The position numbers were made by a program, and so were the translations under genes. Of a stretch of DNA of 64,000 bases, positions 4,800 through 64,000 are shown in pieces. How positions within the stretch are numbered: position 1 is the stretch's first letter; each line of letters starts with the position of its first letter. The stretch is from Octopus vulgaris. Taxonomy: Eukaryota. The notes beneath the pieces were generated by a model. That model saw only the letters and a program-made list of their open reading frames with translations. It was not told the DNA's origin and made no database searches. The stretch is taken from the NCBI GenBank assembly GCA_951406725.2, contig OX597822.1:60822001-60886000 (forward strand), given 5' to 3'.

Positions 4800-4812
<13 letters not shown>

Positions 4813-5285
4813 TCAACTTGTGTGTCTGTCTGTGTATCTGCATGTGTGTCTGTGTGTTTAACTTCCCGGCACATCTCCTCCTAACCAACAAATCGTAGAA
4901 CCACCAAAAATGGTCACTTAAAGTTTAGGCAAATGGAAATTGAACTGCACTATTTCTGTTCCGAAATTCATCTCGCAAGTGCAAAAATCGATAATATGTT
5001 TGTTTAGGCCTTATCCCATGCATTGAATAGTGAACTTTACTCAGTCAGCTGTTTGACGTGAACTGTGTTCACCATGTGTGCAAGCATGCGTTAATTGCAT
5101 GAAAAATAAAAAATCAAGTTATAAAAACGAATCACCGTAATCATTGTAGAAATTTGGCAAAGAAGTGAATTTTTGGGATGTAGCCTGGAGGGTTTTTTCG
5201 TATTAATCGTTTGGACTTTGTGAACACATACCAATTGTTTTCATAACATTTTTAACACTTTGAATTAAATGTGACCATTTTGCGT
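4800..5285 (+). mobile_element. Non-autonomous Helitron-like element, copy 1 (3' end not seen)
   Basis: Roughly 90% identical by eye to 5894-6350. A short 5' fragment of the same family restarts at 5399. Confidence 0.65.
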
Positions 5286-5506
5286 TGAGTCTGCAGATTG
5301 AATCACTTTAACCAAATTTTAGCAGGCCGGATTTCTGATTATCACGATACATTGCCAGCGATTCCCTGAAACTCTCCCCTGAAATCCCCATTGAGAAATC
5401 TATATATATAAAACTCAACTTGTGTGTCTGTGTGTGTATCTGTGTGTGTTTAACTTTTGGATCTACCAAGTTTCATTATTAAGGATGGAAAGTAGTGTGT
5501 AGCAAA

Positions 5507-5893
5507 TCTATATATATGAAGCTAAAGTTGTCTGTGTGGCAGGTTTGGTAGCCTTCAACTAACACTATCTCCTTCAAGACCCTGCAGCGCAAGTTGACCA
5601 AAATTGACAGTATGATAGAAGAAGGCTTGCTCTTCATTCTGTGGAAGATAAAATTCAAATCAGACCATGTTAACACCAAAAATTATTTACATCAAAAAGG
5701 TGCTTTTTTTCTATGAAAATCTCTATTTTTTACGATTTTTGACTGCTGTGTCACCATTTTTCGGTGTATTTCAACTGGAAAAATGTTCACTTGAAGAGAA
5801 TAACAAGTTGCATAATGCAAAATTTTTACTTTTCAAACATTCCAATTCTAAAGGGTCAAAACAAACCCAAGCAACACCGGGTGATACTACTAG
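5507..5893 (+). mobile_element. Non-autonomous Helitron (family 2)
   Basis: A^TC start, subterminal CCC..CGGG hairpin remnant, CTAG^T end; no TIR or TSD. Confidence 0.75.
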
Positions 5894-6373
5894 TCTACAT
5901 ATATATAAAACTCAACTTGTGTGTCTGTGTGTTTAACTTCCTGGCACGTCTCCTAGCCAACAAATCGTAGAACCACCAAAAATGGGTCACTTAAAGTTTA
6001 GGCAAATGAAAATTGAACTGCGCTATTTCTGTTCCGAAATTCATCTTGCAAGTGCAAAAATCGATAATGTGTTTGTTTAGACCTTATCCCATGCATTAAA
6101 TAGTGAACTTTACTCAGCTGTTTGACGTGAACTGTGTTCACCACGCGTGCAAGCATGTGTAAATTGCATGAAAAATAAAAAATCAAGATATAAAAACGAA
6201 TTGCCGTAAACATTGTAGAAATTCGGCAAAGAAATGAATTTTCGGGATGTAGCCTGGAGGGTTTTTTCGTATTAATCGTTTGGACTTTGTGAACACATAC
6301 CAATTGTTTTCATAACATTTTTAACGCTTTGAATTAAATTTGACCATTTTGCAAAGCCGGGCAATACTGCTAG
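5894..6373 (+). mobile_element. Non-autonomous Helitron (family 1, copy 2)
   Basis: TC start directly after the CTAG of the previous element; ends GCAAAGCCGGGCAATACTGCTAG^T. Confidence 0.75.
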
Positions 6374-7294: not shown

Positions 7295-7619
7295 TACAGT
7301 TCCATTATAGGTAGGATCAACGAAAAAAGTACTCCATCCTGTGAGAGATAAATATAATTTAATATACTCAATTACAAAAGTTGTACTAATATTTTCATGC
7401 TTTAAAAAACATTAATTTGGCAGATTTATAAAACATGCCATGTATCTCCAAGCAATCTTTTAGGCTCAATTCATAATGTTAGGTGTATTTATAAACCAGG
7501 ATGCTAATGAATGAGAAAACATGAGAAAAACAAGAAGAGAAGCAAAGTAAGAAAACCAATATCTTTGTCCTGTAGAAATCATAATTAATGTAGCTGGGGC
7601 AGAATAATATAACAAGGTT

Positions 7620-8060: not shown

Positions 8061-8639
8061 AAAATAAGGCTGCTATGTTGGCTAGCCATGTATGGGATTA
8101 TATTTAGTCCCCTGTCACCAGGGTGGGAAAAAAAAAACTATCTGTATTGGCTTCAAATGTTTCCAGTAGATCAAAGCAGGCTTCCACTCTTCTCTTCTCC
8201 AAATCAAGAGTCAACTTCCAAGATACCCACTTTGCACACATTTACCAATTCTTAAAGTCTTCCAGTCTTCTGCAATGCATTGTGATTGCATTGTGATCTC
8301 AGAAAGAAAAGAACATTTTCTCACAAACTTTTAGAACTTTATTTACATACATTACATTTTCATATCTAAAACGACTACCATACATAGTTATGTCACAGGA
8401 CAAAAAAAAAACAAAAACAAAACATACAAGTAAGTGTGCAAAAGCAAGAAAAAATGTACAGTAGAGCAAACAATGAAAAAAATGTCCCAATTATTCAAAT
8501 AAGTTATGTGGAAGGTAGCAACAGTAACAACAACAACATTGGCAACTCTTAAACAAATTCAAACATTATAGTCCATTCATATTGCAGCTGTGTGGAAACA
8601 AATTTTCTCTCAACACTAAATGAGTAGACAAAATGTTTA

Positions 8640-9300
8640 CATCACAGTTGCAAAAGAAAATATGTAAATGGAAGAGTTTTGTAAAACACAACAGCCTTTT
8701 TTGCCAAATGATATAATCCAGGAGAGGGCAAAGAGAAAAATATATATATCACTACTTATGAAAAGACACAAGCAGATGAAAATTCTCCACATATCAATTA
8801 GTACAACAGTCCCCCAAAGACATATTGGGAGAAGCTATCTTGATTGAAAAAGCAGAAGTTATGGCACTATTTGTTGTACCTTTAAAACTGAAAATGCAGC
8901 CAAAACACTGGCTAAAATTGTCATGTATATCTTTGGTGCTACAGTACATGAGTCAATCAGACATGAGAGTGACAATAAGAGATATTAGACATGACCTATA
9001 GCTAGTATTGACTTTTGTGTAGCTGTATGGGAGAATGATCAATACAGACTTATCTAAAGGTGATGAAAGGTAATCCAATACCCTGTGGTCAGTGGATGTC
9101 AAAATGAACTTGTACATTGTAATGACCCCAGAAGGCCACAAGGATATACAGAAATTGTGCCTAATAGAAGGCACCAAAATTAATGATATAGTTAAGAAAA
9201 CATAGTTGCTATTTTTCTCAGTGTAAAACACACCTTAGAGCTGAATGTCCCAAAGAATACAGAAGAATAAACAAAAACACACAAAAAAATGAAAACAACG
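8640..9300 (+). mobile_element. Possible decayed LINE ORF1 (gag-like) with CCHC knuckle remnant
   Basis: CYFSQCKTHLRAECP near 9207-9251, and CTFKTENAAKT resembling the ORF1 at 25.5-26.2 kb. Many stops. Confidence 0.4.
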
Positions 9301-9837
9301 AAAATCAACAACAAAAGAACTACAAACCCCAGTTTCCAAAGCACCACCATTCAAAATTCTGGGAACAGCAAAGCAAATATCTTTTAGCCCAGCAAAACAA
9401 ATAGATGAGCAAATACCCTGTCCTCTAACAGTATCAACCTGTTGTAAGAAAATACGATAGATGAAAAAATCACAAAAAAGGCACAAAACAGTCTAATCTA
9501 TTTTCTTTGTTCTATGTTTATGAGAAACAATTTCTTTTGAAATGACAGCAAAATCATTCCTCTGCAAAATAACAAAGAAAATGTAGAAGACAAAAGTAAT
9601 TAATATCTAAGATTTTTTTTTTACAATAATAAATCTCTGAGCGAGGTATAACCAGTAGCTGCATGAGATCATGAAGTATATTTGCCATTTAAATGTGGCT
9701 AACCCTTAAGGGTGGTTGCTACTGTAGCTTGTAGCCCCAGGAGGACACCTCCTCCAGCTGACTATTGACACACTTTTTGTGCCCTATCAGTATTTGCAAA
9801 GGGAAGCCATCCTTCCGATCTGCAATCTGACATAATA

Positions 9838-9882
9838 CACATGGACTCGAGTTTCTGGGTATTGACCCGTCATCAGCGTGTG
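9838..9882 (-). ncRNA. Minimal type-I hammerhead ribozyme motif (mirror copy)
   Basis: Identical core on the minus strand; the 3' strand of stem I is catgtg. Confidence 0.7.
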
Positions 9883-9967
9883 ACAATCACCGATTGCTGA
9901 TGAAAAGTGGGTTCCCTTTGCAAATATATATCCTTTTTTCCACTTTTCATTGTCAATCAGTGATTGT

Positions 9968-10012
9968 CACACGCTGATGACGGGTCAATACCCAGAAACT
10001 CGAGTCCTTGTG
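9968..10012 (+). ncRNA. Minimal type-I hammerhead ribozyme motif (possibly degenerate)
   Basis: cacacg-CTGATGA-cGGGT-caat-ACCCa-GAAA-C-tcga-G-TC-cttgtg: both core boxes, stem II, a palindromic minimal helix III and a GUC site. Confidence 0.7.
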
Positions 10013-11099
10013 TATCATGTCAGATTGAAGATGGGAAGGATGTCTTCCCTTTGCAAATACTAATAGGGCACAGAAAGTGTGTCAATAGTCAGCTGGAGGA
10101 GGTGTCTTCCTGGGGCTACAAGCTACAGTAGCAACCACCCTTAAGGGTTAGCCACATTTAAGTGGCAAATATACTTCACATTTTTTTTTAGATTCTGGAG
10201 TTACAGACTTTCTGAAAGGTTTGGAATGACACAAGAATTGTTAAGTTGAGAATATAAACATCATGCAAAAAAGAAAATTAAAACATCATATCAAACTTTT
10301 TTTTAAAATACTGTCAAGATGCTGGTGCTTTTCAGTATCAAAATACATTAAAAAAAAATGCCTAGTGATACATTTGTTTGCACTCAAATACAATCTGAAA
10401 TGTGTTTAAGTGAACGGGATCATTGAGTACCCAATTCAACCTAACCAAAAAATCATTCATTGCTTATTTTTGTAAATTATTCTTTGTTTTAATTATTCTG
10501 TTATAATTGTACCTTTTAAATTTTTTCTATGTAAATATGTTTATATGCATACATATATGTACATGTATGCATATATTTGTGCATATGTGTATTTATATGT
10601 ATATGCACATGTGTGTGTGTGTGTGCCTTTTAAGTTCTAAAATTCTTAAAATATCCTACCATATATTGTTCAATGTCGCATACCTTCTTTCATAATTTGT
10701 AACTATGTTTTTTTTTTGTTTTTATAGTTCACTTTATACTTCCTTTGTAACCTCAAGTAAAAGTTTTATATTTTTTGTATCTTATCAAGCCCTTGTAGCT
10801 AATAAAGAAAGGTCCATCATTATTGTTATTATTATTATTATTATTATCATTATTGAGTGAGAGAGCAATGCATGCCATCAAAGTGACAATGGGGTACAAA
10901 TGACAATCAATAATTAATACATTGGGGTACAAATGAAACCCAAGATACCCATCATGACTACCTGTCTGATAAGGGTACACCAGGCACACATATCACAAAC
11001 CTTATGTTTGCAACATGGTGATCTCATATCAAGATAAATAGCACATGGCCTTGCAGGTGGAGCCCAGTTAGAATTTTCTACAGGTTGAGTAGACCAGCA

Positions 11100-11530
11100 A
11101 GCTGGCAGAATAGTTAGCATGCTGGACAAAATGGTTTGTGGTATTTCATCCATCTTTACATTTTGAGTTCAAATTCTACCAAGGTCAACTGTGCTTTTCA
11201 TCCTTTCAGGGTCAATAAATTAGGTACCAGTAAAATACTGGGGTCAATGTAATTGACTGGTCCCCTCCACCAAAATTTCAGGCTTTGTGCCTTTAGTAAA
11301 AAAGATTATTATTATTATTGTTAGTATGCTGGGCAAAATGCATAGCAGCATTTCATCCGTCCTTACATTCTGAGTTCAAATTCCACCAAAGTCAACTTTC
11401 AACTTTACCTTTCCTCTTTCTGAGGCTCAATAAAGTGAGTACCAGTTGAGCACTGGGGGGGGGGGGGGTGTAATTGACTCACCCTTCTCCTAAAATTACT
11501 GGCCTTGTGCCGAAATTTGGAACCATTATA
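11100..11530 (+). mobile_element. Two tandem SINE family A copies
   Basis: gctggcagaatagttagc...gagttcaaattc...ctttcatcctttc.gggtc.ataaa..agtaccag occurs twice. Confidence 0.8.
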
Positions 11531-11605
11531 GTTATTATAAACAAAAAGCCTATTACCTTGTAATATATTTCAATGTCTCGTTATTTCCTTTTGGAGATCC
11601 TTAAG

Positions 11606-24009
<12,404 letters not shown>

Positions 24010-24630: not shown

Positions 24631-26460
24631 AATTTTTTATTTCCCACAAGGGGACTGTACAATCTGATATGGGGTTAGATTTAACGTATGAATTGACATA
24701 AAGATGAATTTTAAAATTTTACATAAATATGAAGAGTTCGAATGATAACAAGACATTACAAAATGGAGTGGGGATGCGGGATGTGCTCGGACCCCACGAG
24801 CCCCGCCTCACCACTGATGCTTTGGGTTCATCCTGCGTTGTATTCATGCAGTCCCATCCATACGCAACATTCGTGCGATATTCTTTCATCAATCTTGAAA
24901 TATTTTCGCGGATAGGCATTTTCTCTCTAACCCTATTTTCCTACTTAGGTGGAAGGTGAAGAAATTCACCATGTTAGGGCCAGAGATAAAAATGCCTGTT
25001 ATTAACCCATTCACTCGCGTCTTCCAAATCACCTCTCTCGCAAATGTTACAATGATGAGAAAGCAATTCTTACCTTCTTTCGATAGGAAATCCGCTGGGT
25101 CAATTTTTACTATTGACTCAGTCGATATCTGTACTCTTCCTGTACTTGACAACAGTTGTTCGGCATAAACCCACACATCTGATACCTCCGAACACTGAAC
25201 AATAGCCTGCAGGACGGATTCCTTGTCCCTCCCACATCTTGGACAGGTCGTTGGGCCAAAGCCACCATGCCTTGCGAGCATGTCCCGGACAGGTAAGGCT
25301 CCTCGGTAACATTGCCATGCCAAAGACTTCTGGAAGTTATCTCGTGTCTTCAGCCCGAATGTACGTGTGTGCTTACTGAGGGAGCTTTTTTCTTGTTCAA
25401 GCTGGATGTTGAGGGGGTGGGATTGGGGTTCTTCCTTTTGGTTACATTTTTTCTTTTTACGGTAGACCATCCGTCTTCACTCCTAGCTGGTTAAGTGTTT
25501 TCATTGCTGGGAGCCTGCTGGCTGGTCTTCTGTGTCTCTGCCTCTTCTGCATCCTTTTTTTTATATATTGGGCCATCTCCACCTTACGGGTAGGACAGTT
25601 TGCCCGAATGTGGCCCATCTGTTCACATACGAAGCACCGGGGTCTTCTCCTTTCCACCATTACCCATAAGGTGGTTTCTTCTCTGAGGTATATATTTTCC
25701 ACGATCTTTGCCAGGGTCTGGCACCGCATGGATGATGACCTCCAGGCCTTGCACCTTCCAGTTCTGCTGTTGGATTTTTGAGGCCTCTAATATTGTTATT
25801 TCTTCTTCGAGAGCCATTAGTAGGGCTGGGAGTTGCCATGAGATGTTCATTTCTGGCAGGATCTCTGATGTATGCCTGCCTAAGTATGTTGGCAGCAACA
25901 CAATGTCTTTGGTTCTCAAAGGCTGCACTGAGTATGTTTTAGCCTTCTCTTCACTCTTGAAATAAGCTACTGCAGTGGCAAAGCGTTTCCCTCTGGTATT
26001 CTGTGTCCTGTCTGATCAGTTGTACATATTTTTCTATTTCTTCTTTTGGTGCTTTGTCGAGTTTATTTTCCTTTATTACCAGAGTTTTAGACACAACTAG
26101 TTTAGGTGCTGCATTAGCACACTTCGATCTATACATAATTTTTCTTTTTTAACTCCTGCTGCAGCTGCAAAATTTATCTTTTTTGGCGGTTCAACAAGTT
26201 TGTCTGCTGTCGGCATACTTAACATTTCACAGTTTTCTTTCCTCTGCAAAAGAAGTATTCATTTTAAACAAAATTTAACAAAATTTGTGGGAAAACGCCA
26301 CAAAAATGGATAATTCCTCGCCTCACAGAGGGAAATAATAGTTCACACCGTCTGCCACATGCAGAACGCTATTAATAACAACACAAGGAAAGAATTCCGC
26401 AACAACAATTTCAACACTAACCTTCAAGCAAAAAAAAGACCACAGAATTATTCACAAGTC
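24631..26460 (-). mobile_element. Tx1/L1-like non-LTR element, internally deleted (ORF1 with CCHC knuckle and zf-RVT tail; no EN or RT)
   Basis: Frameshifted ORF1 (26216->~25460) with CFVCEQMGHIRANCP, then LAWQCYRGALPV..CPRCG..ESVLQAIVQC..VW (zf-RVT-like) in ORF 24889..25470. The 3' end is ...ccccttgtgggaaataaaaaa. Confidence 0.8.
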
Positions 26461-30409: not shown

Positions 30410-31225
<816 letters not shown>

Positions 31226-39777: not shown

Positions 39778-41685
39778 TCACATTTCACATTTAAAAGGTT
39801 TACCTCTAGTGTGTAATTGTTCATGTTTTCTTAAGTGACTGTTACTGGCAAATGATTTCCTACACGTCCCACAATGATAAGGTTTTTCTCCAGTATGGCT
39901 ACGTTTATGTATGACAAGACTATAATTCACTGTGAACGATTTACCACATATTTCGCAGCGGAATGGGTCTTCGCCATTGTGTCTACGTTTGTGGATTGTA
40001 AACTTGGAATTTTCATTGAAAGATTTCCCACACATTTCACAGTGGAACAGGCTTTCTCCAGTATGTGTTAGTTTGTGTTTTGTTAAATAACAGTTAAAGA
40101 CAAAAGATTTTCCACAAATATCACAACGATAAGGTTGTTCACCGGTGTGCATTCGCCTGTGAATAACTAAATGAGAATTACTGATAAATGATCTCTCACA
40201 TAACACACAATAATAAGGTTTTTCCCCAGTATGTGTTCTTTTGTGAACCTCAAGACAAGAATTATTAATGAATGATTTACCGCATATTTTGCAATCACAG
40301 GGTTTTTCCCCTGTATGTATTCTTCTGTGCGTTTTTAGGACACTGCTCAACCTGAATGATTTCCCGCATATCTGACAACGATATGGTTTTTCTCCTGTGT
40401 GACTACGCTTATGGATAACAAGCTTTGAATTATTAATGAAAGATTTGTCACAAATTTCACAGTGAAATCGGTTTTCCCAGGAGTGTATTTTTTGGTGCGT
40501 TTTTAAACCAACGTTGGAGGCAAATGATTTCTTACATATTTCACAACGGAAGGGTTTTTCTCCGGTGTGACTACGTATGTGGATAACAAGGTTTGAATTA
40601 TTAATGAATGATTTTCCGCATATTTTGCAGTCATAGGGTTTTTCCCCTGTATGTATCCTTCTGTGTGTTTTTAAGACACTGTTTAACATAAAAGATTTTC
40701 CGCATATTTCACAACGGTAGGGCTTTTCCCCAGTGTGACTACGTACGTGAACAACAAGACTTGAACTATCACAGAAAGATATGCCACAAATTCCACAGTG
40801 ACAGGGTTTTTCTCCAGTGTGATGTCGTTGGTGAATAACAAGACTGGAATTATTAGAGAAGGACTTTCCACATATCCCACAGTGACAGGGTTTTTCTCCA
40901 GTGTGACTACGTTGGTGAATAACAAGACTCGAATTCTGAGTGAAAGATTTTCCGCATATTTCACAGCGATAGGGTTTTTCGCCCGTATGTATCCTACTAT
41001 GACTTGTTAAATAACTGTTATTGACAAAAGACTTCCCGCATATCTCACAGCAATACGGTTTTTCTCCAGTATGTTTACGTAGGTGAATTGTAAGCTTAGA
41101 ATTCTCTGTAAAGGAAATCCCACATATTTTACATTTAAACGGTTTTTCTCCACTGTGTATTCGTTTGTGTGTCGTTAAATAACTGTTGGTGATGTAAGAC
41201 TTTCCACATATTTCACAGGTATAGGGCTTTTCTCCAGTATGACAACGTTTATGAACTACGAGATTAGAATTAACAGAGAAGGATTTCCCGCATATTTCGC
41301 AGCGAAAAGGCTTCTCGCCAGTATGCACTCTTTTGTGAGTTGTTAAATTACTCTTAGAATCAGAAGTTTTTCCGCATATTTCACAACGAAACGATTTTTC
41401 TCCAGCGTGTATTTTTTTGTGGGTTTTTAAATTACTTTTAGAGACAAAACATTTTCCACATAATTCACAACTATACGGTTTTTCCCCAGTGTGTACTCTC
41501 TGATGCCTTGCTAAATTACATTTATAAACAAAATATTTTCCACAGACTTCGCAGTAGGAAGGAGATTTTCTATTGTGTGTTTTTTTATGTGCAACAACTT
41601 CGTGGTCTGAAGAGAAACTTTTTCTACAAATCTCACAACAATATTCAGGAATATTTTCATGTAATGATTTTTCATTAGTAAACAT
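39778..41685 (-). CDS. C2H2 zinc-finger protein, 22 tandem fingers (ZNF-B)
   Basis: 635-aa ORF = 14 + 22x28 + 5 aa. The frame stays open for 39 codons upstream of the ATG, so an upstream exon is possible. Confidence 0.95.
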   Translation of the reverse strand: MFTNEKSLHENIPEYCCEICRKSFSSDHEVVAHKKTHNRKSPSYCEVCGKYFVYKCNLARHQRVHTGEKPYSCELCGKCFVSKSNLKTHKKIHAGEKSFRCEICGKTSDSKSNLTTHKRVHTGEKPFRCEICGKSFSVNSNLVVHKRCHTGEKPYTCEICGKSYITNSYLTTHKRIHSGEKPFKCKICGISFTENSKLTIHLRKHTGEKPYCCEICGKSFVNNSYLTSHSRIHTGEKPYRCEICGKSFTQNSSLVIHQRSHTGEKPCHCGICGKSFSNNSSLVIHQRHHTGEKPCHCGICGISFCDSSSLVVHVRSHTGEKPYRCEICGKSFMLNSVLKTHRRIHTGEKPYDCKICGKSFINNSNLVIHIRSHTGEKPFRCEICKKSFASNVGLKTHQKIHSWENRFHCEICDKSFINNSKLVIHKRSHTGEKPYRCQICGKSFRLSSVLKTHRRIHTGEKPCDCKICGKSFINNSCLEVHKRTHTGEKPYYCVLCERSFISNSHLVIHRRMHTGEQPYRCDICGKSFVFNCYLTKHKLTHTGESLFHCEMCGKSFNENSKFTIHKRRHNGEDPFRCEICGKSFTVNYSLVIHKRSHTGEKPYHCGTCRKSFASNSHLRKHEQLHTRGKPFKCEM

Positions 41686-42562
41686 TTCACTACTTAAAGG
41701 CTTATCACCATTGTATATCTGTGTGAATGAACCTATATTGCTAATATATTGCGTTGAAGTTATTAACGTCTCCCTTATAAAGTTTCGATGAATTCTTACA
41801 AGTTATGAAATCCCTGTAACTATAGACTAGTATTGTTTTGTTGTTTTTTGGCTTACGTATCGTGGGATTGTGTTTACATAATATAATTAGATTAATTATA
41901 ATACTATGTGATAAAGTTAGTTACTAATACTAATACAATTAAATAACTTGAACTTACAAAGATAACATATAGGCGGTGTCATTGAAAATATCACCCTGCC
42001 TAAATGATACCGGTGACATACGTTCAAGGTCCCAAACGTTATTTTGTATTTTCAGAAATAATCTTGTCTCGGTAGAGTCGTTATGACACAACAAAATTTT
42101 TTTCAATACACGAATTCACATAAAGAATCTTGCAAACCAGATACAAATATGAAGCAGAAATAATCTGTTACACCAATTGCTTCCTTAAATTATAACCTAC
42201 TAGAAATCGGAGACAAATCTCTCCAAATTAAAGGCGCTCTGGGTACCTATCAGCTTACTTGAAATTTTATAGACGTTTGCCTCGCCTCGCAGGTCTGGAT
42301 GGGTGTGTAGATACTCGTTTTTCTTATTAAGAGAAGGATAATTTTGACAGTATACCCCATTATATATAACCATATCGGTTAATGTTTACATCTTGATGGA
42401 TACACACATACACACACGTGCGCGCGCGTAAGTCGTCTAACATTCCATAAGCCAGGAAAAAGATGCCCTCGTATATCTGTCAATAGAGTGGGTATATTAT
42501 CCGAAGAGTACTATTATATATCCGTGATGGATATATAATACTGTACCTTTCGGATAATATAT

Positions 42563-44594: not shown

Positions 44595-45350
44595 GTGGTA
44601 TTCTCGGACTAGTTCTGAAGCGCGCCAACAGATGGCAGCACACGGTTGTGTGTGTAGTGAGAGCTAGCAGTGACCTTCATGAGGCAGTGTGCCGAGTGAC
44701 ATCGCTGTTTACTTTGCAAGTTGTGACATTTGTGTTTTTGTGATCACATGTATGCTGTACTCTGCGATTTTTGTCATGGACAGGAAGTTGGAACAAAGAG
44801 CCAACGTGAAATTTTGCGTTAAACTTGGGAAGTCTGCTACAGAGATAGTGAGCATACTTCGACAAGCTTACAGAGATGAGACAATGGGGTCGTACGTAAT
44901 GTTTCGAGTGGAACGGGCCCTTCAAAAGTAGAAGAACGTCCCTGGAAGACAATGAGCGATCTAGATGACCAGCTATGAATGTCACCACCAGAAATGTGGA
45001 GATAATTCACCGGCATGAGAACCGTCGGAGGTCAATCAACGATATTTTGAAGAGTTTGAAGGAGGACATTTGGCGAAAGCGACCGAATCTGCGGAGTGCG
45101 AAAAATTGGATTCTTTGTTACGATAATGCACCCTGTCATCGAGCTCTTCTCACTAGTGAATTTCTCTCCAAAAACAACATGGTATCGCTTCTGCACCCGT
45201 CCTATTCGCCAGATTTGGCATCTGCGGACTTCCATCTCTTTCCCCAAGATGAAAATGCCACCGTTTTAATACCGTCGACGAGATCAAGACCGAATCGCAG
45301 AATCGCTTACGGAAAACGACTTTCAGACCAGATTCCAAAAGTGAAGAAAT
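44595..45350 (+). mobile_element. Mariner transposon fossil, internally deleted
   Basis: N-terminal MDRKLEQRANVKFCVKLGKSATE (HTH), DNAPCH and YSPDLASADFHLFP catalytic motifs; frameshifts; most of the central catalytic region is absent. Confidence 0.92.
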
Positions 45351-45427
45351 ACTTAGTAGTTCATGCTGTCTTTCTCATTTATATCATACTCCATAAAGAT
45401 TTTAATATTCATATTTCTATAATCGCT

Positions 45428-46060
45428 TTGTTGCCTCATAACTTCCAGAAAAATAGATGGTGCAGATTCTGAATATATTGGAATATGCAGGGGATGGAAA
45501 AATAAGTTTTTCGACGGTGGGGGTGAGAAGTTTCAGGAAATTCACACGAGACAGCTTTTTTAACTCATAACTTTCAGAAAATGGGTAATTTTTTAATGAA
45601 ATTTTCGAAAAATACCTTTCAGAGTGTGTCGATTACGATTATATCAGAATTTGATATGAAAAACTAAATCTGGTGGGCTCGTAAACATACATATTGACAC
45701 TTGATATATATATATATATATACAAAATGAAATTTGAAATTTCGAAAAAAAAAATTGTGATGTGTGTCAGTATGTGTTTATGTGCTCACAATTTTCTTTT
45801 CACATAAAATTATATAATAATTTACACATCTGGAAAAGTATTTGTAGAAAATTTCATTAAAAAAATATTCCTTTTTCTGAAAGTTAGGAGGAAACAAAGC
45901 CGAGCTGGGTGAATTTTCTGAAACTCTTTTCCCACCTATAGAAAAAAAAAATTCTCAACAAATTTCAATATAATCAGAATCGGCACCATCTGAAGCGTAT
46001 TTGTAGAAAACTTCATTAAAATATAGTTATTTTTCTGGAAGTTATGAGGAAACAAATGAG
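45428..46060. repeat. Unclassified fold-back repeat
   Basis: cctcataacttccagaaaaa / tttttctggaagttatgagg inverted ends with repeated inner inverted units. Related sequence at 32935-33170. Confidence 0.55.
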
Positions 46061-47444: not shown

Positions 47445-47885
47445 ACTCGATGTTTTAACGATGTGAATTTTCCGAGGCCTCTCTCCCACCCCCGTTCACG
47501 AGCGCGCATTTTTTTTTTTTTTTTTCATATTCGTTTTGAGCAAATTGTTTTACACCTATTACACTATTTTTCTTTTGTTTCTTGGCTCTGGTGAGGCGAC
47601 TCGGAACATTCACGATGTGAATTTTCCGAGGCCCCCCCCACACGTTCGCGAGCGCGCGTCTTTTTTTTTTCATATTCGTTTAGAGCAAGTTGTTTTAAAC
47701 ATATTACACAATTTTTTATTTGTTTTGGTGCCCGGGTCAGCTCCTCAGACGCTTTCGGAACTTCCCGATGTGAATTTTCCGAGGCCTCTCCCCCACCCCC
47801 CTTTCGCGTGCGCGAATTTTTTTTTTCATATTCGTTCATAGGAAGTTGTTTTACACCTATTACACACATTTTTTTTTTTTTCTGA
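47445..47885. repeat. Tandem repeat, ~3 units of 154 bp
   Basis: gatgtgaattttccgaggcc at 47460, 47614 and 47768. Confidence 0.9.
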
Positions 47886-49810: not shown

Positions 49811-51167
49811 ATATTTATATATATATACATACACACACACATGCGAAAAAACATTTGATTATACGGTGCAGTTTTCTATTCTATAAAACATCATCGCATA
49901 TGTTTACCGCTCTCCCCCACCGTAACACTTTATCACCTGACCAAAATCGACCAATGAAAATTCAATAATTCGATTTCCGCTCTCTCATTATTCAAAAAGT
50001 ACCTGTTTCGCCATTTTACTGTCTCTGGGAACCGAGAAGGTTGTTAATAATTATTATTTATTACATACGACTTACTTCTGCACAGTTTTTGTCTACCAAA
50101 TTCAATTCTCGAGGTATTTAGCTTTAATATTTGATCTTTACATCTACCTGTAACAGCTGCAATTGTAAGGTGATAAAGGATAGACGTCAAGTACTTTGCA
50201 CCAAATTCAACAGTCAGTACTTCCTGAAATATATTTTATTCGAGATACTTTTTGCTGATATTTCTTTCAATCGTCTTTTCTTCATTCGCGAATGTAATAT
50301 TTCTTTTTGTTTAATCTGTCGTAAAATGCGTAGCCTTACAACTTGCTTTTGATCATAGGGTTGATTTGGGTCTTAACATCCTAGCTCTTAAGAAGTCTCT
50401 ACATTATTATCATTCAACCTGCAAGAAATAGCAATCCAGTTTTTTTCAAATTGCATCTGAACGTCTTGAATATGTACGGACACATTAAATAATGTAGTCT
50501 TTGATATAAATTGTCTGAAAGGGCGGGATGGCCTTGGCAGGAATACCTTTTATCATACCTGTCAGAACTGACTTTGGTTACACAAAATCTAACGGATCAA
50601 CAACGACGAATGACATTTCTGGAGAAAATAGAACTTTACTGTCTACTATTCTGCAGTTTCGTATCATGTTTCACAATCCGAAGATGTAGCTTAAGCTTGT
50701 GTGATATAATTTCATAAATTAAGTTCAGTTGTTCTGGTAAATGTTTATATTTACAGTTTATCAATAGAGAAATATTTCCTTCGTTGAATCCTTATTTTTT
50801 TACGTATTCTGAATATTTTACACTGTTTCTGTACTTTTTCAGGAATATCAGATGATCTTTGCGAAAAGGAATTTCTAACTTCGGATATATCATCAATATT
50901 TTTCATCTTTTAAACACTAAAGAAAGATATGCGGAATCGATACAACCAGTTTATATAAATCTATGGTAGAGATTTACTGTGAAATATTTCCTGAGAGTGA
51001 GATTTGAAAAGATACAAGATCTTGAATTCTAATTAAATTCAAGCAGATATACAAAGGAGTTTGCAGCATCTTCAGATATTGACCAGGATTACAGTTAGTA
51101 GAAATATTTGCTCAGAAAATATAAAATTCAAGGAACATAATTCTCTTGTAGTGAGATAGGAAAAAAT

Positions 51168-51932
51168 ATGGAAAATGAATTACGTGAGAAAGCAGTTAAA
51201 CGTAAAATTGAGAATAAAAAGACTCTTTTTCCAAAAGTGATTCTAAAAGGAGTAGGAAAAGCATCATATCACTGCGATGTCTGTAACAAAACATTCTCTC
51301 TAAAAGGTAACCTCACTACTCACAAACGTATTCATACAGGAGAAAAACCATATCACTGTTCTATCTGTGGTAAATCATTCTCTCAAAGATCCAGCTTAAC
51401 TACTCATAGACGCATTCATACAGGAGAAAAACCGTATCACTGTGATATCTGTGATAAATCATTTTCTGTAATTGGTAACCTTACTACTCATATACGTAGT
51501 CATACAGGAGAGAAACCATATCACTGTGTTATCTGTGGTAAATCTTTCTCTGGAAGTAGTGATTTAACTATTCATAAACGCATTCATACTGGAGAGAAGC
51601 CATATCGCTGTTATGTCTGTGGTAAATCTTTTGCTGGAAATCGTGACTTAACTACTCACAAGCGTATTCACACAGGAGAAAAACCATATCACTGTGATAT
51701 CTGTGGTAACTTATTTACGCAAAGATCTAGTTTAAATACTCACTTACATATTCATTCAGGAGTAAAGCCATACCATTGTGATACATGTGGTAAATCATTC
51801 TCTGCACCAGGTAACTTAACTACTCATAAACGTACTCATACAGGAAACAAACCATTTAATTGTGATATCTGTGGGAGATCATTCTCTAGAAATAGTGACT
51901 TAACTACCCATATACGTATTCATACTGGGTAG
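51168..51932 (+). CDS. C2H2 zinc-finger protein, 8 tandem fingers (ZNF-C)
   Basis: 254-aa ORF: 33-aa leader MENELREKAVK...KAS plus 8 fingers. TTTTTCAG acceptor at 50842. Confidence 0.93.
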   Translation: MENELREKAVKRKIENKKTLFPKVILKGVGKASYHCDVCNKTFSLKGNLTTHKRIHTGEKPYHCSICGKSFSQRSSLTTHRRIHTGEKPYHCDICDKSFSVIGNLTTHIRSHTGEKPYHCVICGKSFSGSSDLTIHKRIHTGEKPYRCYVCGKSFAGNRDLTTHKRIHTGEKPYHCDICGNLFTQRSSLNTHLHIHSGVKPYHCDTCGKSFSAPGNLTTHKRTHTGNKPFNCDICGRSFSRNSDLTTHIRIHTG

Positions 51933-52708
51933 AAACCATATGCTTGATAAGTGGTGAATCATTCTCTTGAAATAAGGGTGTCAGTGAAAGTTGACCATAT
52001 ATCTGCATATGTATGTTCAGGCATGGGCATGTTTTCCTGTTTTTTAAGTAAGACTGGCTAATTGCTCATGTTTGTAAGTCCTTTTCACTATGACTCTGCT
52101 GGTACTTTTTGATTATCTCCCCCAAATAAAAAAATTGTTTAACCCTCAATAAAACAAAATGAAAAAATTAATAAACATGAATGATAATATTTTTATAACA
52201 AACCATACGAAACTGAAAAAAATTAAACATCTTATTGAATCTAATAACATTTTTATAACAAATCATACCATACCTATTGAAGAAGCCAAACGTCAACAAT
52301 ATGTTGAAGTACCGAATCAAAAGGATCTAACACTAATCCAATCTCTTGTCACCACATAAACTCAATATTTTAGTGGAGAGATAACCCAATTTTTTAATGG
52401 GGGTGAGATAACCAAAGATACCCTCTGATGTTATTAAAAGTAAACGCTGCTGATATGGGTTAATACAGCATGGCATTGCTGTCAGAATGCTGAGAGCTGG
52501 AACAAATATTGCAAAGCATCTCACCCAACACGTTAACAGTTTTGCCAACCCACTGTCCTAGATTGATACATATTTTATTGACCCTGAATGGATGGAAGAC
52601 ATTATCCACAGCAGGATTTGAACTGATTGCAGAGTTTTGGAACAAATACTACAAGGCATTGTATCTAGCACCGTAATGACATTGCCAATTTGCTGCCTTT
52701 CTCTATGG

Positions 52709-53991: not shown

Positions 53992-54221
53992 TATGAGGTG
54001 GTATCAAAATATTCCTGGACTAGTTCTGTAATGTGCCAACGGTTGGCAGCACTTGGTTGCGTGTGCAGTGAAAGATAGCTGTGACCTTCATGAGGCAGTG
54101 TGCCAAGTGACATTGCTGTGTTTACTTCGCTAGTTTTGAAATTTGTGGTTGTGTGTACTTTGTAGTCTGCGATTTTGTCATGGACAGGATGTTGGAACAC
54201 AGAACCAATGTGAAATTTTGT
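53992..54221 (+). mobile_element. Mariner 5' end, same family as 44595-45350
   Basis: Shares ggactagttctg..gtgaccttcatgaggcagtgtgcc..ATGGACAGGA..GTGAAATTTTG. Confidence 0.85.
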
Positions 54222-55539
54222 CCCGGCTTGCGGGGGTGATTGCCTCCCCTTTGCAAATATAAGGACACAGAAAATGTGTCAAAGCTGACAGGAGATGTCG
54301 ATGTTTCCTAGGGCTAAATGGCAATGGTGTAATTCCCTTACGGGACTGTCACATTGAGTTGACAGTATACGATCACTATATATATATATATATAATATAT
54401 GCAAAATGTGTTGTATAATTTGTAAATCATCCTCATCAATGTTATATTCATTTTTCCATGTTGGTATGAGTTGGACTTGTTACACAAGGTTTGACTGCAT
54501 TTTCTTTTTTTTTAATGTTTTGTCATCCTAGCTGTAAGGCCCATAATTAGATCTTACCTCAACAATTTTTGTGAATATTCTTAAAAATTGAAAGTTTTAA
54601 TAAAACTAATTTATTATTAGTCTTTATCATTTTATGTTCAGAACAAAATCTAACCTCAACTTGTATTGACACAACTTTTAAATTATAGAATTCACAAATT
54701 AGATTAATAATGGATTAAATTTGCAAATTCCTCTGAAGTGATTAGGTAAATAATATTTGTATTAAAGAACTCATGTGTCTTCAAACTACTACGTTTATAT
54801 ATATTATCCCATTTATTGTGTATAAGCACTACTCTCTATTAAAATGGTAATAACTCGAATATGTTTCCATAAATAGAAGGATTATTGTTTCAAATGTAGT
54901 GCTTTTTTCATTTGGTTCTGAATTAATTGAATTATCTCATAGCTTTGACGTTTCAATGATGTGATTATTTTGAGACTGATAGTGTGAGGTCAGCTTGAAT
55001 ATAAAGCAGGAAGAATATTTGAGCCAGATCAGGTCAGTTTAAATGCTGAAGGGTTAATGAAGATATATTTACTTTCTGATCTGTATACTTCTCTCATCCT
55101 TTATTAATTTTTATGGGGAGTACTAAGATGTTTGTTTATAGATTACTTTCGTTGGAATGAATATATTGTGCCACATATACCAAACTTATATAAGCATTCA
55201 TATATTAAAGGCAGGTAGTCTCCAGAATTTAAAATTGAATTAAAGTCGCTTTAACACTTCCAGAAATATTTCTTTCAGCAGAATACAGTATCCAAATCCT
55301 TTAAAGGGAAAATTTAGTTATTTAACAAGTGTATGCAAATTGGCTATTGTTGTGTGTGAAAATGTAATCCTCATTCCTTTTGCATCATTTTGAGGAGTGT
55401 TTGGAACAATAGAGTACTAAATTGAGGAGTAATGCCCTAACATCCTGGATTCTACAGTCTAAAGATGACTTCGTTTGGGTTACATCTCTAAATGAGCTTG
55501 GAAACTAATAAATTCCTTGTCAGCATGCATTTGAAATGT

Positions 55540-62570: not shown

Positions 62571-64000
62571 ATGGAAACTGAATTTCATGACAACCAAATT
62601 AAATGTAAAGAACAATCTGAAAGGATTAATTATTCTGATGAGTTGATGAAAGAGAAAGAAAAAACATGTAATATCATTGAAAAGTCATTCTCTCCAAAAA
62701 CAAACCTCAGTAACAAAAATATTCATACTAGAAAGAAGCCATATCACTGTGATATCTGTGGTAAATCATTCTCTCAAAATGATCACTTAACCACTCACAA
62801 ACGTATTCATACAGGAGAGAAGCCATTTCTCTGTAATATTTGTGGTAGATCATTCTCTCAAATAAATCACTTAACTATACATAAACGCATTCATACAGGA
62901 GAGAAGCCATATCTGTGTGATATCTGTGGTAAATCATTCTCTGGAAGTGGTGAGTTAACTTGTCACAAACGTATTCATACTGGAGAGAAGCCATATCACT
63001 GCAATATCTGCAATAAATCATTCTCTCGAAGTGATCATTTATCTAAGCACAAACGAATTCATACAGGAGAGAAACCACATCATTGTGATATCTGTGGCAA
63101 ATCATTCTGCCGAAGTGGTGAATTGACTTCTCACAAACGTGTTCATACAGGAGAGAAACCATATCACTGTGATATCTGTGGTAAATCATTCTCCCATGGA
63201 AAAACTTTAACTAACCACAGACGCATTCATACTGGAGAGAAGCCATATCACTGTGACATTTGTGGTGAGTCATTCTCTGAAAACGGTGACTTAACTAAAC
63301 ATAAACGCGTTCATACAGGTGAGAAGCCATATAAGTGTGATACCTGTGGTAAATCATTTTCTCAAATAAATCATTTAACTAAACACAAACGCATTCATAC
63401 AGGAGAGAGACCATACCATTGTGATGTCTGTGGTAAATCATTCTCTCAAAATAGTGTATTAACTAAGCATAAACGCATTCACACAGGGGAAAAGCCATAT
63501 TGCTGTGAAATCTGTGGTAAATCATTTGCTGTAACAGGGAGTTTAGCTAATCACAAATACACCCATACAGGAGAAAAGCCATATCACTGTGATATCTGTG
63601 GCAAATCATTCTCTCATAGAAATACCTTGACTACTCACAAACGTATTCATACTGGAGAAGAGCCCTACGAGTGTAATATCTGTGGTAAATCATTCTCTGG
63701 AAATAGTAACTTAATTATTCACAAACGTATTCATACAGGTGAGAAACCATATCACTGTGATATTTGTGGTAAATCATTTTCTCAGATAAATCACTTAACT
63801 AAGCACAAACGCATTCATACAGGAGAAAAACCATATCATTGTGATATTTGTGGTAAATCATTCCCTCGAAATGGTGACTTAACAATCCACATGCGTGTTC
63901 ATACAGGAGAGAAACCATATCACTGCGATATTTGTGGAAAATCATTTTCTGGAAAAAGTGATTTAACTAAACACAAGAGGATTCATACAGGTGAAAAGCC
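62571..64000 (+). CDS. C2H2 zinc-finger protein, >=15 fingers, truncated by the window end (ZNF-D)
   Basis: Translated by hand: [31 protein letters not shown], one degenerate finger, then 15 intact 84-nt fingers from 62742 with no stop. There is an alternative in-frame ATG at 62559. Not in the ORF track. Confidence 0.95.

What the first reader, a model, noticed from the sequence alone, without database searches (positions are those of the whole stretch)
9672..10178. 507-bp palindrome with a minimal hammerhead ribozyme in each arm
Seen: two 239-bp arms (~13 mismatches), each containing CTGATGA-cGGGTcaatACCCa-GAAAC-TCGA-GTC. The loop repeats an arm motif (ttccctttgcaaata). Known: Penelope-like elements carry minimal hammerheads with a palindromic helix III that cleave as dimers, and often leave inverted pLTRs. 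Inference: transcription in either direction makes the antisense arm first and the ribozyme second, so the RNA would either self-cleave or collapse into a long dsRNA (an ADAR or Dicer substrate). The element lies ~1.4 kb downstream of the CFAP119 stop and could be co-transcribed. A C.A mismatch at the base of stem II and one mismatch in stem I suggest decay.
Basis: partly seen in the sequence, partly recalled or inferred. Interest (0 to 1): 0.8.

Follow-up and report, generated by a model that had tools for sequence, protein, structure and literature searches.

The report
Back-to-back Penelope-type hammerhead insertion, octopus
A 507-base mirror-image stretch of octopus DNA is real and is likely the stump of a Penelope-type jumping gene that landed as two back-to-back copies; each copy carries an imperfect hammerhead self-cutting RNA motif that is predicted to be locked in one long hairpin if read through, so this is probably an ordinary case of a known kind.

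Summary
The palindrome is real: 239-nt arms, 13 mismatches, one hammerhead motif per arm, 1.43 kb past the stop codon of Octopus CFAP119. It is larger and more lopsided than described. The 'loop' is the extra 5' end of the left copy and closes a long rod capped by the hammerhead. A 48-nt tail lies outside the left arm only, and an 11-12-nt candidate target duplication flanks the whole 556-nt unit. A third, 5'-truncated copy (65% identical, 54.2 kb) ends at nearly the same 3' point beside (TA)n and keeps five small hairpins with compensatory changes. Head-to-head copies, a one-sided tail and a short duplication match the published Penelope-like insertion signature. The hammerhead fits the canonical animal type I (retrozyme-like) layout better than the 'minimal' one. 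Its C·A mismatch is shared by both arms, so it need not be decay. Cleavage here is unlikely: the motifs lie on opposite strands, and read-through pairs 44 of 45 motif bases with the other arm. No reverse-transcriptase gene, genome-wide consensus or expression data could be obtained. The scan earlier noted the same kind of palindromic stump in other genomes (unchecked notes). Verdict: new member of a known kind, low-moderate interest.

The parts
9612..9623 (.). Left copy of candidate target-site duplication (A-T10-A)
   Evidence: Matches 10180-10190 over 10 nt exactly, plus one T of slippage. A match of 10 nt or more in the same geometry occurs at 0.04% of 5,000 random window positions and 0.15% of 3,401 local positions. 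Low complexity, so moderate evidence.
9624..9671 (-). 48-nt extension ('tail') outside the left arm only
   Evidence: Absent beside the right arm. GC 0.40 (0.47 for 9634-9671) against 0.23 and 0.27 in the 100-nt flanks. No second copy in the window. Its identity as a PLE tail is inferred from position and size.
9672..9939 (-). Left copy, the longer unit (about 268 nt), read outward from the centre; includes the so-called loop as its extra 5' end
   Evidence: fold z = -6.3, 0 of 150 shuffles as stable
9791..9926 (-). Irregular rod (extended helix I) with the hammerhead at its tip; the outer 15 bp are perfectly complementary
   Evidence: MFE -53.5 kcal/mol, z = -6.2, 0 of 150 shuffles, 50 predicted pairs of which 6 are G-U; the antisense strand also folds (z = -5.0)
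9837..9882 (-). Type I hammerhead motif of the left copy; predicted cleavage after 9844; C·A at the base of helix II and a C·A mismatch at helix I position 1.2
9911..9939 (.). Asymmetric centre: 9911-9926 is the rod's 5' strand (left copy); the rest is either native 5' sequence or junction filler
   Evidence: origin of the remainder unresolved
9940..10178 (+). Right copy: inverted, 16-29 nt shorter at its 5' end, no tail
9968..10013 (+). Type I hammerhead motif of the right copy; predicted cleavage after 10006; C·A at the base of helix II and a C·U mismatch at helix I position 1.2
10067..10167 (+). Five small hairpins of the 3' domain (mirrored in the left arm), conserved in the third copy
10180..10190 (.). 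Right copy of candidate target-site duplication (A-T9-A)
54221..54375 (+). Third, diverged, 5'-truncated family member without the hammerhead; near-coterminal 3' end, followed by (TA)n
   Evidence: blastn E 1.3e-7; nhmmer E 2e-8 with the left copy as query; 94 of 144 ungapped columns identical to the right arm
11606..11812 (-). Last coding exon and stop codon of CFAP119 (neighbouring host gene, not part of the element)
   Evidence: tblastn 98.5% identity to P0002 residues 222-289

Best explanation
The palindrome is likely one Penelope-type retrotransposition event that left two head-to-head copies of a structured, hammerhead-bearing terminal unit, and its hammerheads are predicted to be silent at this site. 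Inferred steps: (1) A GIY-YIG/RT complex nicked an AT-rich site and copied the element RNA from an internal start, giving the left copy with its tail. (2) Synthesis then turned back near the 5' end and made the shorter inverted copy. (3) Repair duplicated about 11 nt of target. In the parent RNA the hammerhead, at the tip of a long rod, would cut tandem transcripts, alone or as a dimer through the 8-bp palindromic helix III. At this locus the two motifs lie on opposite strands and each has a stem I mismatch next to the cut site. Any read-through RNA, for example a long CFAP119 3' UTR, would zip into a 239-bp hairpin as it is made, an incidental dsRNA substrate rather than a switch. Shown: the anatomy, the third copy, the conserved hairpins and the computed folds. 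Inferred: the integration mechanism, the parent's ribozyme activity, and any transcription. Whether the parent is an autonomous PLE or a non-autonomous retrozyme is open.
For: Head-to-head orientation with the inverted copy 5'-shorter. One-sided 48-nt GC-richer extension. Candidate 11-12-nt duplication flanking the whole unit. These features are described for Adineta Pen2a: inverted shorter pLTR, 31-bp tail, 9-bp TSD; for PLEs generally, a 30-40-bp tail; and in PMC4209133, dual hammerheads 100-700 bp apart on opposite strands. The anole PLE starts reverse transcription downstream of its hammerhead and prefers ATT targets; here the ends lie 172 and 220 nt past the cut site and the candidate duplication starts with ATT. 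A third copy is 5'-truncated, near 3'-coterminal and abuts (TA)n. Its hairpins are conserved: 25 pairs, 95.9% of 74 cells paired, 3 pairs changed on both sides, 9 of 500 shuffles as high, slid controls 31-46%. In the three hairpins needing no loop-length choice, 14 of 14 pairs are kept despite 5 changed positions, P about 0.004. Silence at this site: 44 of 45 motif bases pair with the opposite arm, and all bases made so far do at shorter prefixes, in both directions; the active fold costs 90 kcal/mol. PLEs cover 6.83% of the O. vulgaris genome in 190 families.
Against: No PLE RT or GIY-YIG reading frame is linked to the unit: a crude motif scan of the window found none convincing, and no genome is held. 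The tail (48 nt) is longer than the published 30-40 nt and has no second copy in the window to confirm it is element-derived. The target duplication is a poly-T run. The covariation rests on two independent sequences only; two of the five hairpins were aligned by hand, and helix 3 scores only 80% in the unedited alignment. The third copy lacks the hammerhead, so stems I and II show no tested covariation. The Rfam score is far below threshold. The conserved G10.1-C11.1 pair directly against G12 is not present. No clear fold-back microhomology is visible at the central junction.
Confidence: 0.76

Rival explanations
1. Exapted cis-regulatory element: the insertion arose as above but now lies in the CFAP119 3' UTR and is kept because its 239-bp hairpin is edited, retained in the nucleus or diced, or because the hammerhead trims the mRNA.
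For: The only AATAAA on the minus strand between the stop and position 7300 is at 8338, beyond the element, and 8301-9500 is A-rich on the plus strand, i.e. U-rich in that direction. Perfect paired runs of 54, 48 and 33 bp remain. Retrozyme copies that overlap exons tend to be in 3' UTRs.
Against: An ATTAAA at 10488 and several weaker hexamers lie before the element, so the mRNA may end upstream. Arm divergence of 5.4% gives no sign of constraint by itself. Trimming is predicted to be blocked by the hairpin.
Confidence: 0.08
2. Foldback/Mutator-type non-autonomous DNA transposon with long terminal inverted repeats; the hammerhead motif is a passenger or chance.
For: Long near-perfect arms and a short centre; a 9-11-nt duplication is typical of Mutator-like elements (recalled, no call).
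Against: The duplication is separated from the left arm by 48 nt. The related copy at 54.2 kb is single-armed and 5'-truncated. The unit carries RNA-type structure with G-U pairs and compensatory changes.
Confidence: 0.07
3. A single element copy inserted first, and the mirror image was made later by a host replication or repair template switch.
For: The element's own rod and AT-rich centre could promote fold-back; the centre is irregular.
Against: The candidate target duplication flanks both arms together, and the right arm stops within one base of it without copying any left-flank host DNA.
Confidence: 0.07
4. Assembly or library artefact (a fold-back chimera).
For: Palindromes are a known artefact class (general knowledge).
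Against: The arms differ at 13 of 239 positions scattered along their length, and the unit has an asymmetric centre, a one-sided tail and a flanking duplication, none of which a chimera would produce.
Confidence: 0.02

Closest known systems
Inverted-pLTR insertions of endonuclease-bearing Penelope-like elements (Adineta vaga Pen2/Pen2a, PMC3846280; general scheme in PMC8557442; anole PAc in PMC11167929)
   Same: Head-to-head copies with the inverted one 5'-shorter, an extension on one copy only, a short target duplication, an AT-rich target, and a hammerhead a short distance upstream of the 3' end.
   Different: No RT-endonuclease ORF between or beside the repeats. The tail is 48 nt rather than 30-40. 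The unit is densely structured and has stop codons in all three frames of the left copy.
Metazoan non-LTR retrozymes (coral 220-245 nt, mussel 350-390 nt, axolotl 330/350 nt; PMC7229834; PLE link in bioRxiv 10.64898/2026.07.22.740005)
   Same: Non-coding unit of about 270-315 nt, under 50% GC, highly self-paired, with a canonical-layout type I hammerhead and a 2-bp helix III with tetraloop. Axolotl HHR_Amex2 has a native mismatch at the base of helix II.
   Different: No head-to-tail tandem here. No circular RNA or cleavage shown. The mismatch is C·A, not U·U. Inverted arrangement.
Minimal hammerheads (min-HHR) of metazoan PLEs (PMC4209133)
   Same: Type I topology, palindromic positions around 15.2-16.2 and loop 3, probable dimer capability; opposite-strand pairs 100-700 bp apart were already noted in Schistosoma.
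   Different: min-HHRs have a 7-8-bp helix II, a 4-5-bp helix I with poorly defined loop 1, and G10.1-C11.1 directly against the core. This motif has a short helix II, a 6-bp helix I continuing into a long rod, and an extra or mismatched A before G12.

Membership tests
Penelope-like element insertion (EN+ PLE) | RT plus GIY-YIG ORF associated with the repeat | not testable with these tools
   No genome held; none found in the window by a crude motif scan
Penelope-like element insertion (EN+ PLE) | Inverted, 5'-truncated copy adjacent at the 5' end (head-to-head) | tested here: met
   both motifs read outward; the right copy is 16-29 nt shorter
Penelope-like element insertion (EN+ PLE) | 30-40-bp tail on one end only | tested here: inconclusive
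   One-sided 48-nt GC-richer extension (38-nt core); not confirmed as element-derived by a second copy
Penelope-like element insertion (EN+ PLE) | Short target-site duplication in AT-rich DNA | tested here: met
   9612-9623 / 10180-10190; chance 0.04-0.15%; low complexity
Penelope-like element insertion (EN+ PLE) | Dispersed 5'-truncated, 3'-coterminal copies | tested here: met
   One further copy at 54221-54375; no more above noise in the window
Type I hammerhead ribozyme | Conserved core CUGANGA / GAAA / NUH in type I order | tested here: met
Type I hammerhead ribozyme | Helices I-III paired, G10.1-C11.1 at the base of helix II | tested here: not met
   C·A at the base of helix II in both arms; mismatch at 1.2 in both arms; 10 of 12 model pairs are standard
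Type I hammerhead ribozyme | Rfam Hammerhead_1 gathering score (34 bits) | tested here: not met
   11.7 bits, E 4.1
Type I hammerhead ribozyme | Loop 1-loop 2 tertiary contact (unpaired U1.7 with the terminal A of loop 2) | tested here: inconclusive
   U at 1.7 in both arms, and loop 2 ends in A if read as 6 nt (contact described); it would end in U if the U-A pair closes; no covariation available
Type I hammerhead ribozyme | Self-cleavage | not testable with these tools
   Needs an in vitro assay
Minimal PLE hammerhead (min-HHR) | Long helix II (7-8 bp), short helix I (4-5 bp), extra base after A9 followed by G10.1-C11.1 against G12 | tested here: not met
   Helix II has 4 pairs at most plus the C·A, helix I has 6 positions plus a rod, and an A precedes G12
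Non-LTR retrozyme | Head-to-tail tandem units of 150-450 bp, each with a hammerhead | tested here: not met
   No tandem array of the unit in the window; the rest of the genome was not available
Non-LTR retrozyme | Non-coding, highly self-paired unit | tested here: met
   z = -6.3; stops in all frames; hairpin covariation
Non-LTR retrozyme | Circular RNA expressed | not testable with these tools
   No read data obtained
Foldback/Mutator-like MITE | Target duplication abutting both terminal inverted repeats | tested here: not met
   48 nt lie between the left duplication and the left arm

The most novel reading that the evidence does not exclude
The unit is the monomer of an undescribed cephalopod retrozyme, a self-cleaving circular RNA with a long rod and a five-hairpin domain, whose hammerhead works natively with C·A at the base of helix II. 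Penelope machinery inserts it head-to-head, which silences the ribozyme and seeds long dsRNA hairpins in host 3' UTRs, here CFAP119, as substrates for octopus A-to-I editing.
Probability: 0.12. Interest if true: 0.62.

Novelty: new member of a known kind. Interest (0 to 1): 0.3.

Why it matters
As best explained it is one more stump of a known retroelement class, useful mainly as a compact record of how PLE integration makes inverted copies and tails. Two things lift it slightly. First, my one search for 'octopus' with 'hammerhead ribozyme' (4 papers listed) and term searches in the 2026 O. vulgaris repeat annotation and its supplement (no 'ribozyme' or 'hammerhead') turned up no description of a cephalopod hammerhead family; the unreadable supplement of PMC7229834 could contain one. 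Second, the unit has a conserved RNA architecture (rod plus five hairpins) that may be the signal the PLE protein recognises. If such insertions commonly sit in 3' UTRs, they would be a ready source of long dsRNA in an animal known for heavy RNA editing (recalled), which is testable with existing RNA-seq.

Tried and rejected
Whole-genome search: no genome is held, so there is no family consensus or copy number.

Read and contig mapping gave no result. Expression, editing, RNA ends at 10006/9844, empty-site alleles and read-level proof of the palindrome therefore stay open. The run index listed 24 runs, of which 20 hold part of 8200-11900 and 7 hold half or more of its words; no RNA holder is listed.

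Collection scans: two patterns in metagenome contigs and one in genome contigs found 0 loci. A looser hammerhead pattern in viral contigs gave 2 loci with the same sequence around the match (L001, L002). I rejected these as chance: helix I does not form and L001 lies in frames open across the whole locus.

Rfam: no hammerhead in the 6-kb or whole-window scans; the miRNA hits there are below gathering scores and lie on AT repeats or on the palindrome itself. A covariance model of the 3' domain found only its three training copies and the rod's own partial repeat (E 0.003); the other 21 of 25 rows had E of 0.05 or more. Look-ups of earlier findings by sequence, genome and relatives were empty.

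Monomer folding puts the active fold 8-10 kcal/mol above the ensemble. I give this little weight: the model ignores tertiary contacts and I ran no known active hammerhead as a control. A coding reading of the unit was rejected (stops in all three frames of both copies). The literature search on G10.1/C11.1 variants listed one paper, not read.

Full report
Observation. Each arm holds a type I hammerhead-like motif reading outward from the centre, so the copies are head-to-head. In the right arm, helix I is 9968-9973 with 10007-10012, the core starts at 9974, helix II is 9981-9984 with 9991-9994 around a 6-nt loop, helix III lies in the perfect 8-nt palindrome 9998-10005, and C17 is 10006; the left arm mirrors this. 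Ten of twelve model pairs are standard in each arm. The exceptions are C·A at the base of helix II (both arms) and position 1.2 of helix I (A in the left arm, T in the right). A relaxed descriptor finds only these two motifs in the window, against 10 hits in 150 shuffled windows. A chance motif somewhere in 64 kb is thus not negligible (about 0.07), but one at the tip of a rod inside a 300-nt insertion is unlikely (inference). Rfam does not call it: 11.7 bits against a gathering score of 34 (no hammerhead hit).

Host context. The neighbouring gene is CFAP119 on the minus strand (CLAMP domain; best named relatives from Octopus bimaculoides and O. vulgaris; last exon 11812-11609 at 98.5% identity). 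The stop is 1,428 nt from the right arm. On that strand an ATTAAA lies at 10488, before the element, and the only AATAAA down to position 7300 lies at 8338, beyond it. Whether the mRNA includes the element cannot be told from sequence.

(a) The centre is not a neutral loop. Bases 9911-9926 continue the left copy at its 5' end and pair with 9791-9805 over 15 perfect bp, closing an irregular rod with the hammerhead at its tip: -53.5 kcal/mol, z -6.2, 0 of 150 shuffles, 6 G-U among 50 pairs. The antisense strand folds nearly as well (z -5.0), so this alone does not prove selection on one RNA strand. The right copy lacks those 16-29 nt. (b) Outside the left arm only lies a 48-nt segment (9624-9671) richer in GC than either flank (0.40, core 0.47, against 0.23 and 0.27). 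(c) Beyond it, 9612-9623 (A-T10-A) matches 10180-10190 (A-T9-A), which begins one base after the right arm; such a match arises at 0.04% of 5,000 random positions and 0.15% of 3,401 local ones. (d) A third family member lies at about 54221-54375: nhmmer E 2e-8, 94 of 144 columns identical. It is 5'-truncated before the hammerhead, ends at nearly the same 3' point and abuts (TA)n. Five hairpins predicted from the left copy alone are kept in it: 95.9% of 74 cells paired, 3 double-sided changes, 9 of 500 shuffles as high, slid controls 31-46%. With loop lengths chosen by hand for two hairpins, 24 of 25 pairs are kept; in the three hairpins needing no such choice, 14 of 14 are kept despite 5 changes, P about 0.004. 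This is two independent sequences only, and it does not test the hammerhead stems. No further copy rose above noise.

How it most likely arose. A head-to-head pair with the inverted copy shorter, a one-sided tail and a short duplication in AT-rich DNA is the published signature of endonuclease-bearing Penelope-like elements. Adineta Pen2a has an inverted pLTR 37 bp shorter than the full ones, a 31-bp tail and a 9-bp TSD. Craig et al. describe inverted 5'-truncated copies and a 30-40-bp tail in general. The anole PAc protein cuts ATT sites and starts reverse transcription at two internal sites downstream of its hammerhead, the interval being the tail; here the ends lie 172 and 220 nt past the cut site. 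Self-priming was proposed for head-to-head junctions; I see no clear microhomology at this junction, so the turn-around step is inferred. If the arms were identical at insertion, their distance (JC 0.056) on the O. vulgaris scale of JC 0.09 = 25 million years gives very roughly 8 million years; gene conversion would make this an underestimate. No RT/GIY-YIG frame is linked to the unit, so the parent may be an autonomous PLE or a non-autonomous retrozyme; the 2026 preprint argues that the two are related through the pLTR.

The ribozyme. Cervera and de la Pena define canonical metazoan type I motifs as helix I of 6 bp, helix II of 4 bp and a 1-2-bp helix III with a palindromic loop; Schistosoma min-HHRs have a 7-8-bp helix II, a 4-5-bp helix I and an extra base after A9. 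This motif fits the first layout better, and has U at 1.7 with a loop 2 ending in A, the described tertiary contact. An alternative reading, a bulged C plus a four-pair helix plus a bulged A, is the same structure and cannot be excluded. The C·A is shared by both arms, so it was in the template or was homogenised. One CpG transition from C-G would explain it, but a native mismatch at this position is known in axolotl HHR_Amex2. Position 1.2 differs between the arms and is mismatched in both, which fits decay of a CpG. Invertebrate motifs with a 2-bp helix III can cleave as monomers, PLE minimal motifs cleave poorly, PAc needs its protein, and 8 of 9 Xenopus retrozyme dimers showed no cleavage; activity of the parent is therefore plausible but unproven.

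Consequence at this locus. The two motifs are on opposite strands, so one transcript carries one sense motif and no cis dimer is possible. In read-through RNA from either side, every motif base made so far pairs with the earlier arm (23 of 23, 39 of 39, then 44 of 45), and the active fold costs 90 kcal/mol (full hairpin about -435 kcal/mol). If transcribed through, the element would be a long dsRNA with perfect runs of 54, 48 and 33 bp, a likely ADAR substrate (general knowledge). Only a transcript starting in the centre would present a free hammerhead. None of this is tested, because no read data were obtained.

Novelty. Opposite-strand hammerhead pairs 100-700 bp apart, attributed to truncated PLEs, were noted in 2014, and unchecked earlier notes of this scan describe similar palindromic stumps in other genomes. 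I found no description of a cephalopod hammerhead family. It is a new member of a known kind.

Papers seen: PMC4209133, parts 1-3 of 4, supplement not read. bioRxiv 10.64898/2026.07.22.740005, parts 1-3 of 5, supplements closed. PMC7229834, parts 2-3 of 6; its supplement was unreadable and may list further invertebrate motifs. PMC11167929, parts 1-2 of 4. PMC3846280, passages and Discussion. PMC8557442, PMC6765202, PMC6155905 and PMC11875169, passages only. PMC13282606, passages and a supplement term search. All others: search listings only. Recalled without a call: Mutator TSD length, heavy editing in cephalopods, and the mariner-like look of the DNA around the third copy.

Noticed in passing
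window 8301-9500 versus 10501-10900: AT skew flips across the element (A-rich on the left, T-rich on the right), with AATAAA on the minus strand at 8338 and on the plus strand at 10801, as if U-rich transcript ends lay on both sides.
   Followed up: partly
window about 9686-9620, minus strand: A frame beginning with ATG near the end of the left arm stays open for about 22 codons through the tail, reminiscent of pLTR-plus-tail covering the first codons of a PLE ORF. The right arm has GTG there. It is too short to search and within what chance allows.
   Followed up: no
window 53995-54220: The third copy interrupts or follows sequence that looks like the end of a Tc1/mariner-type element (recalled resemblance); the copy itself begins with a short GC hairpin.
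   Followed up: no
window 9951-9953: Three adjacent arm mismatches create a second ATTGTCA in the right arm, 14 nt before an existing one, suggesting one local template slip rather than three substitutions.
   Followed up: no
window 30410-31225, 39778-41802, 51141-51973, 62721-64000: Several C2H2 zinc-finger arrays with an 84-bp period.
   Followed up: no
window 24889-26015 (-) and 44969-45472 (+): Decayed non-LTR retrotransposon pieces (zf-RVT, zf-CCHC) just upstream of CFAP119, and a weak DDE_3 transposase fragment.
   Followed up: partly
window about 4800-5330 and 5890-6350: Two similar copies of a roughly 450-500-nt repeat in tandem with a spacer, each starting after a (TA)n run (seen by eye).
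   Followed up: no
window 47458-47884: A 145-bp tandem repeat of 2.8 copies.
   Followed up: no
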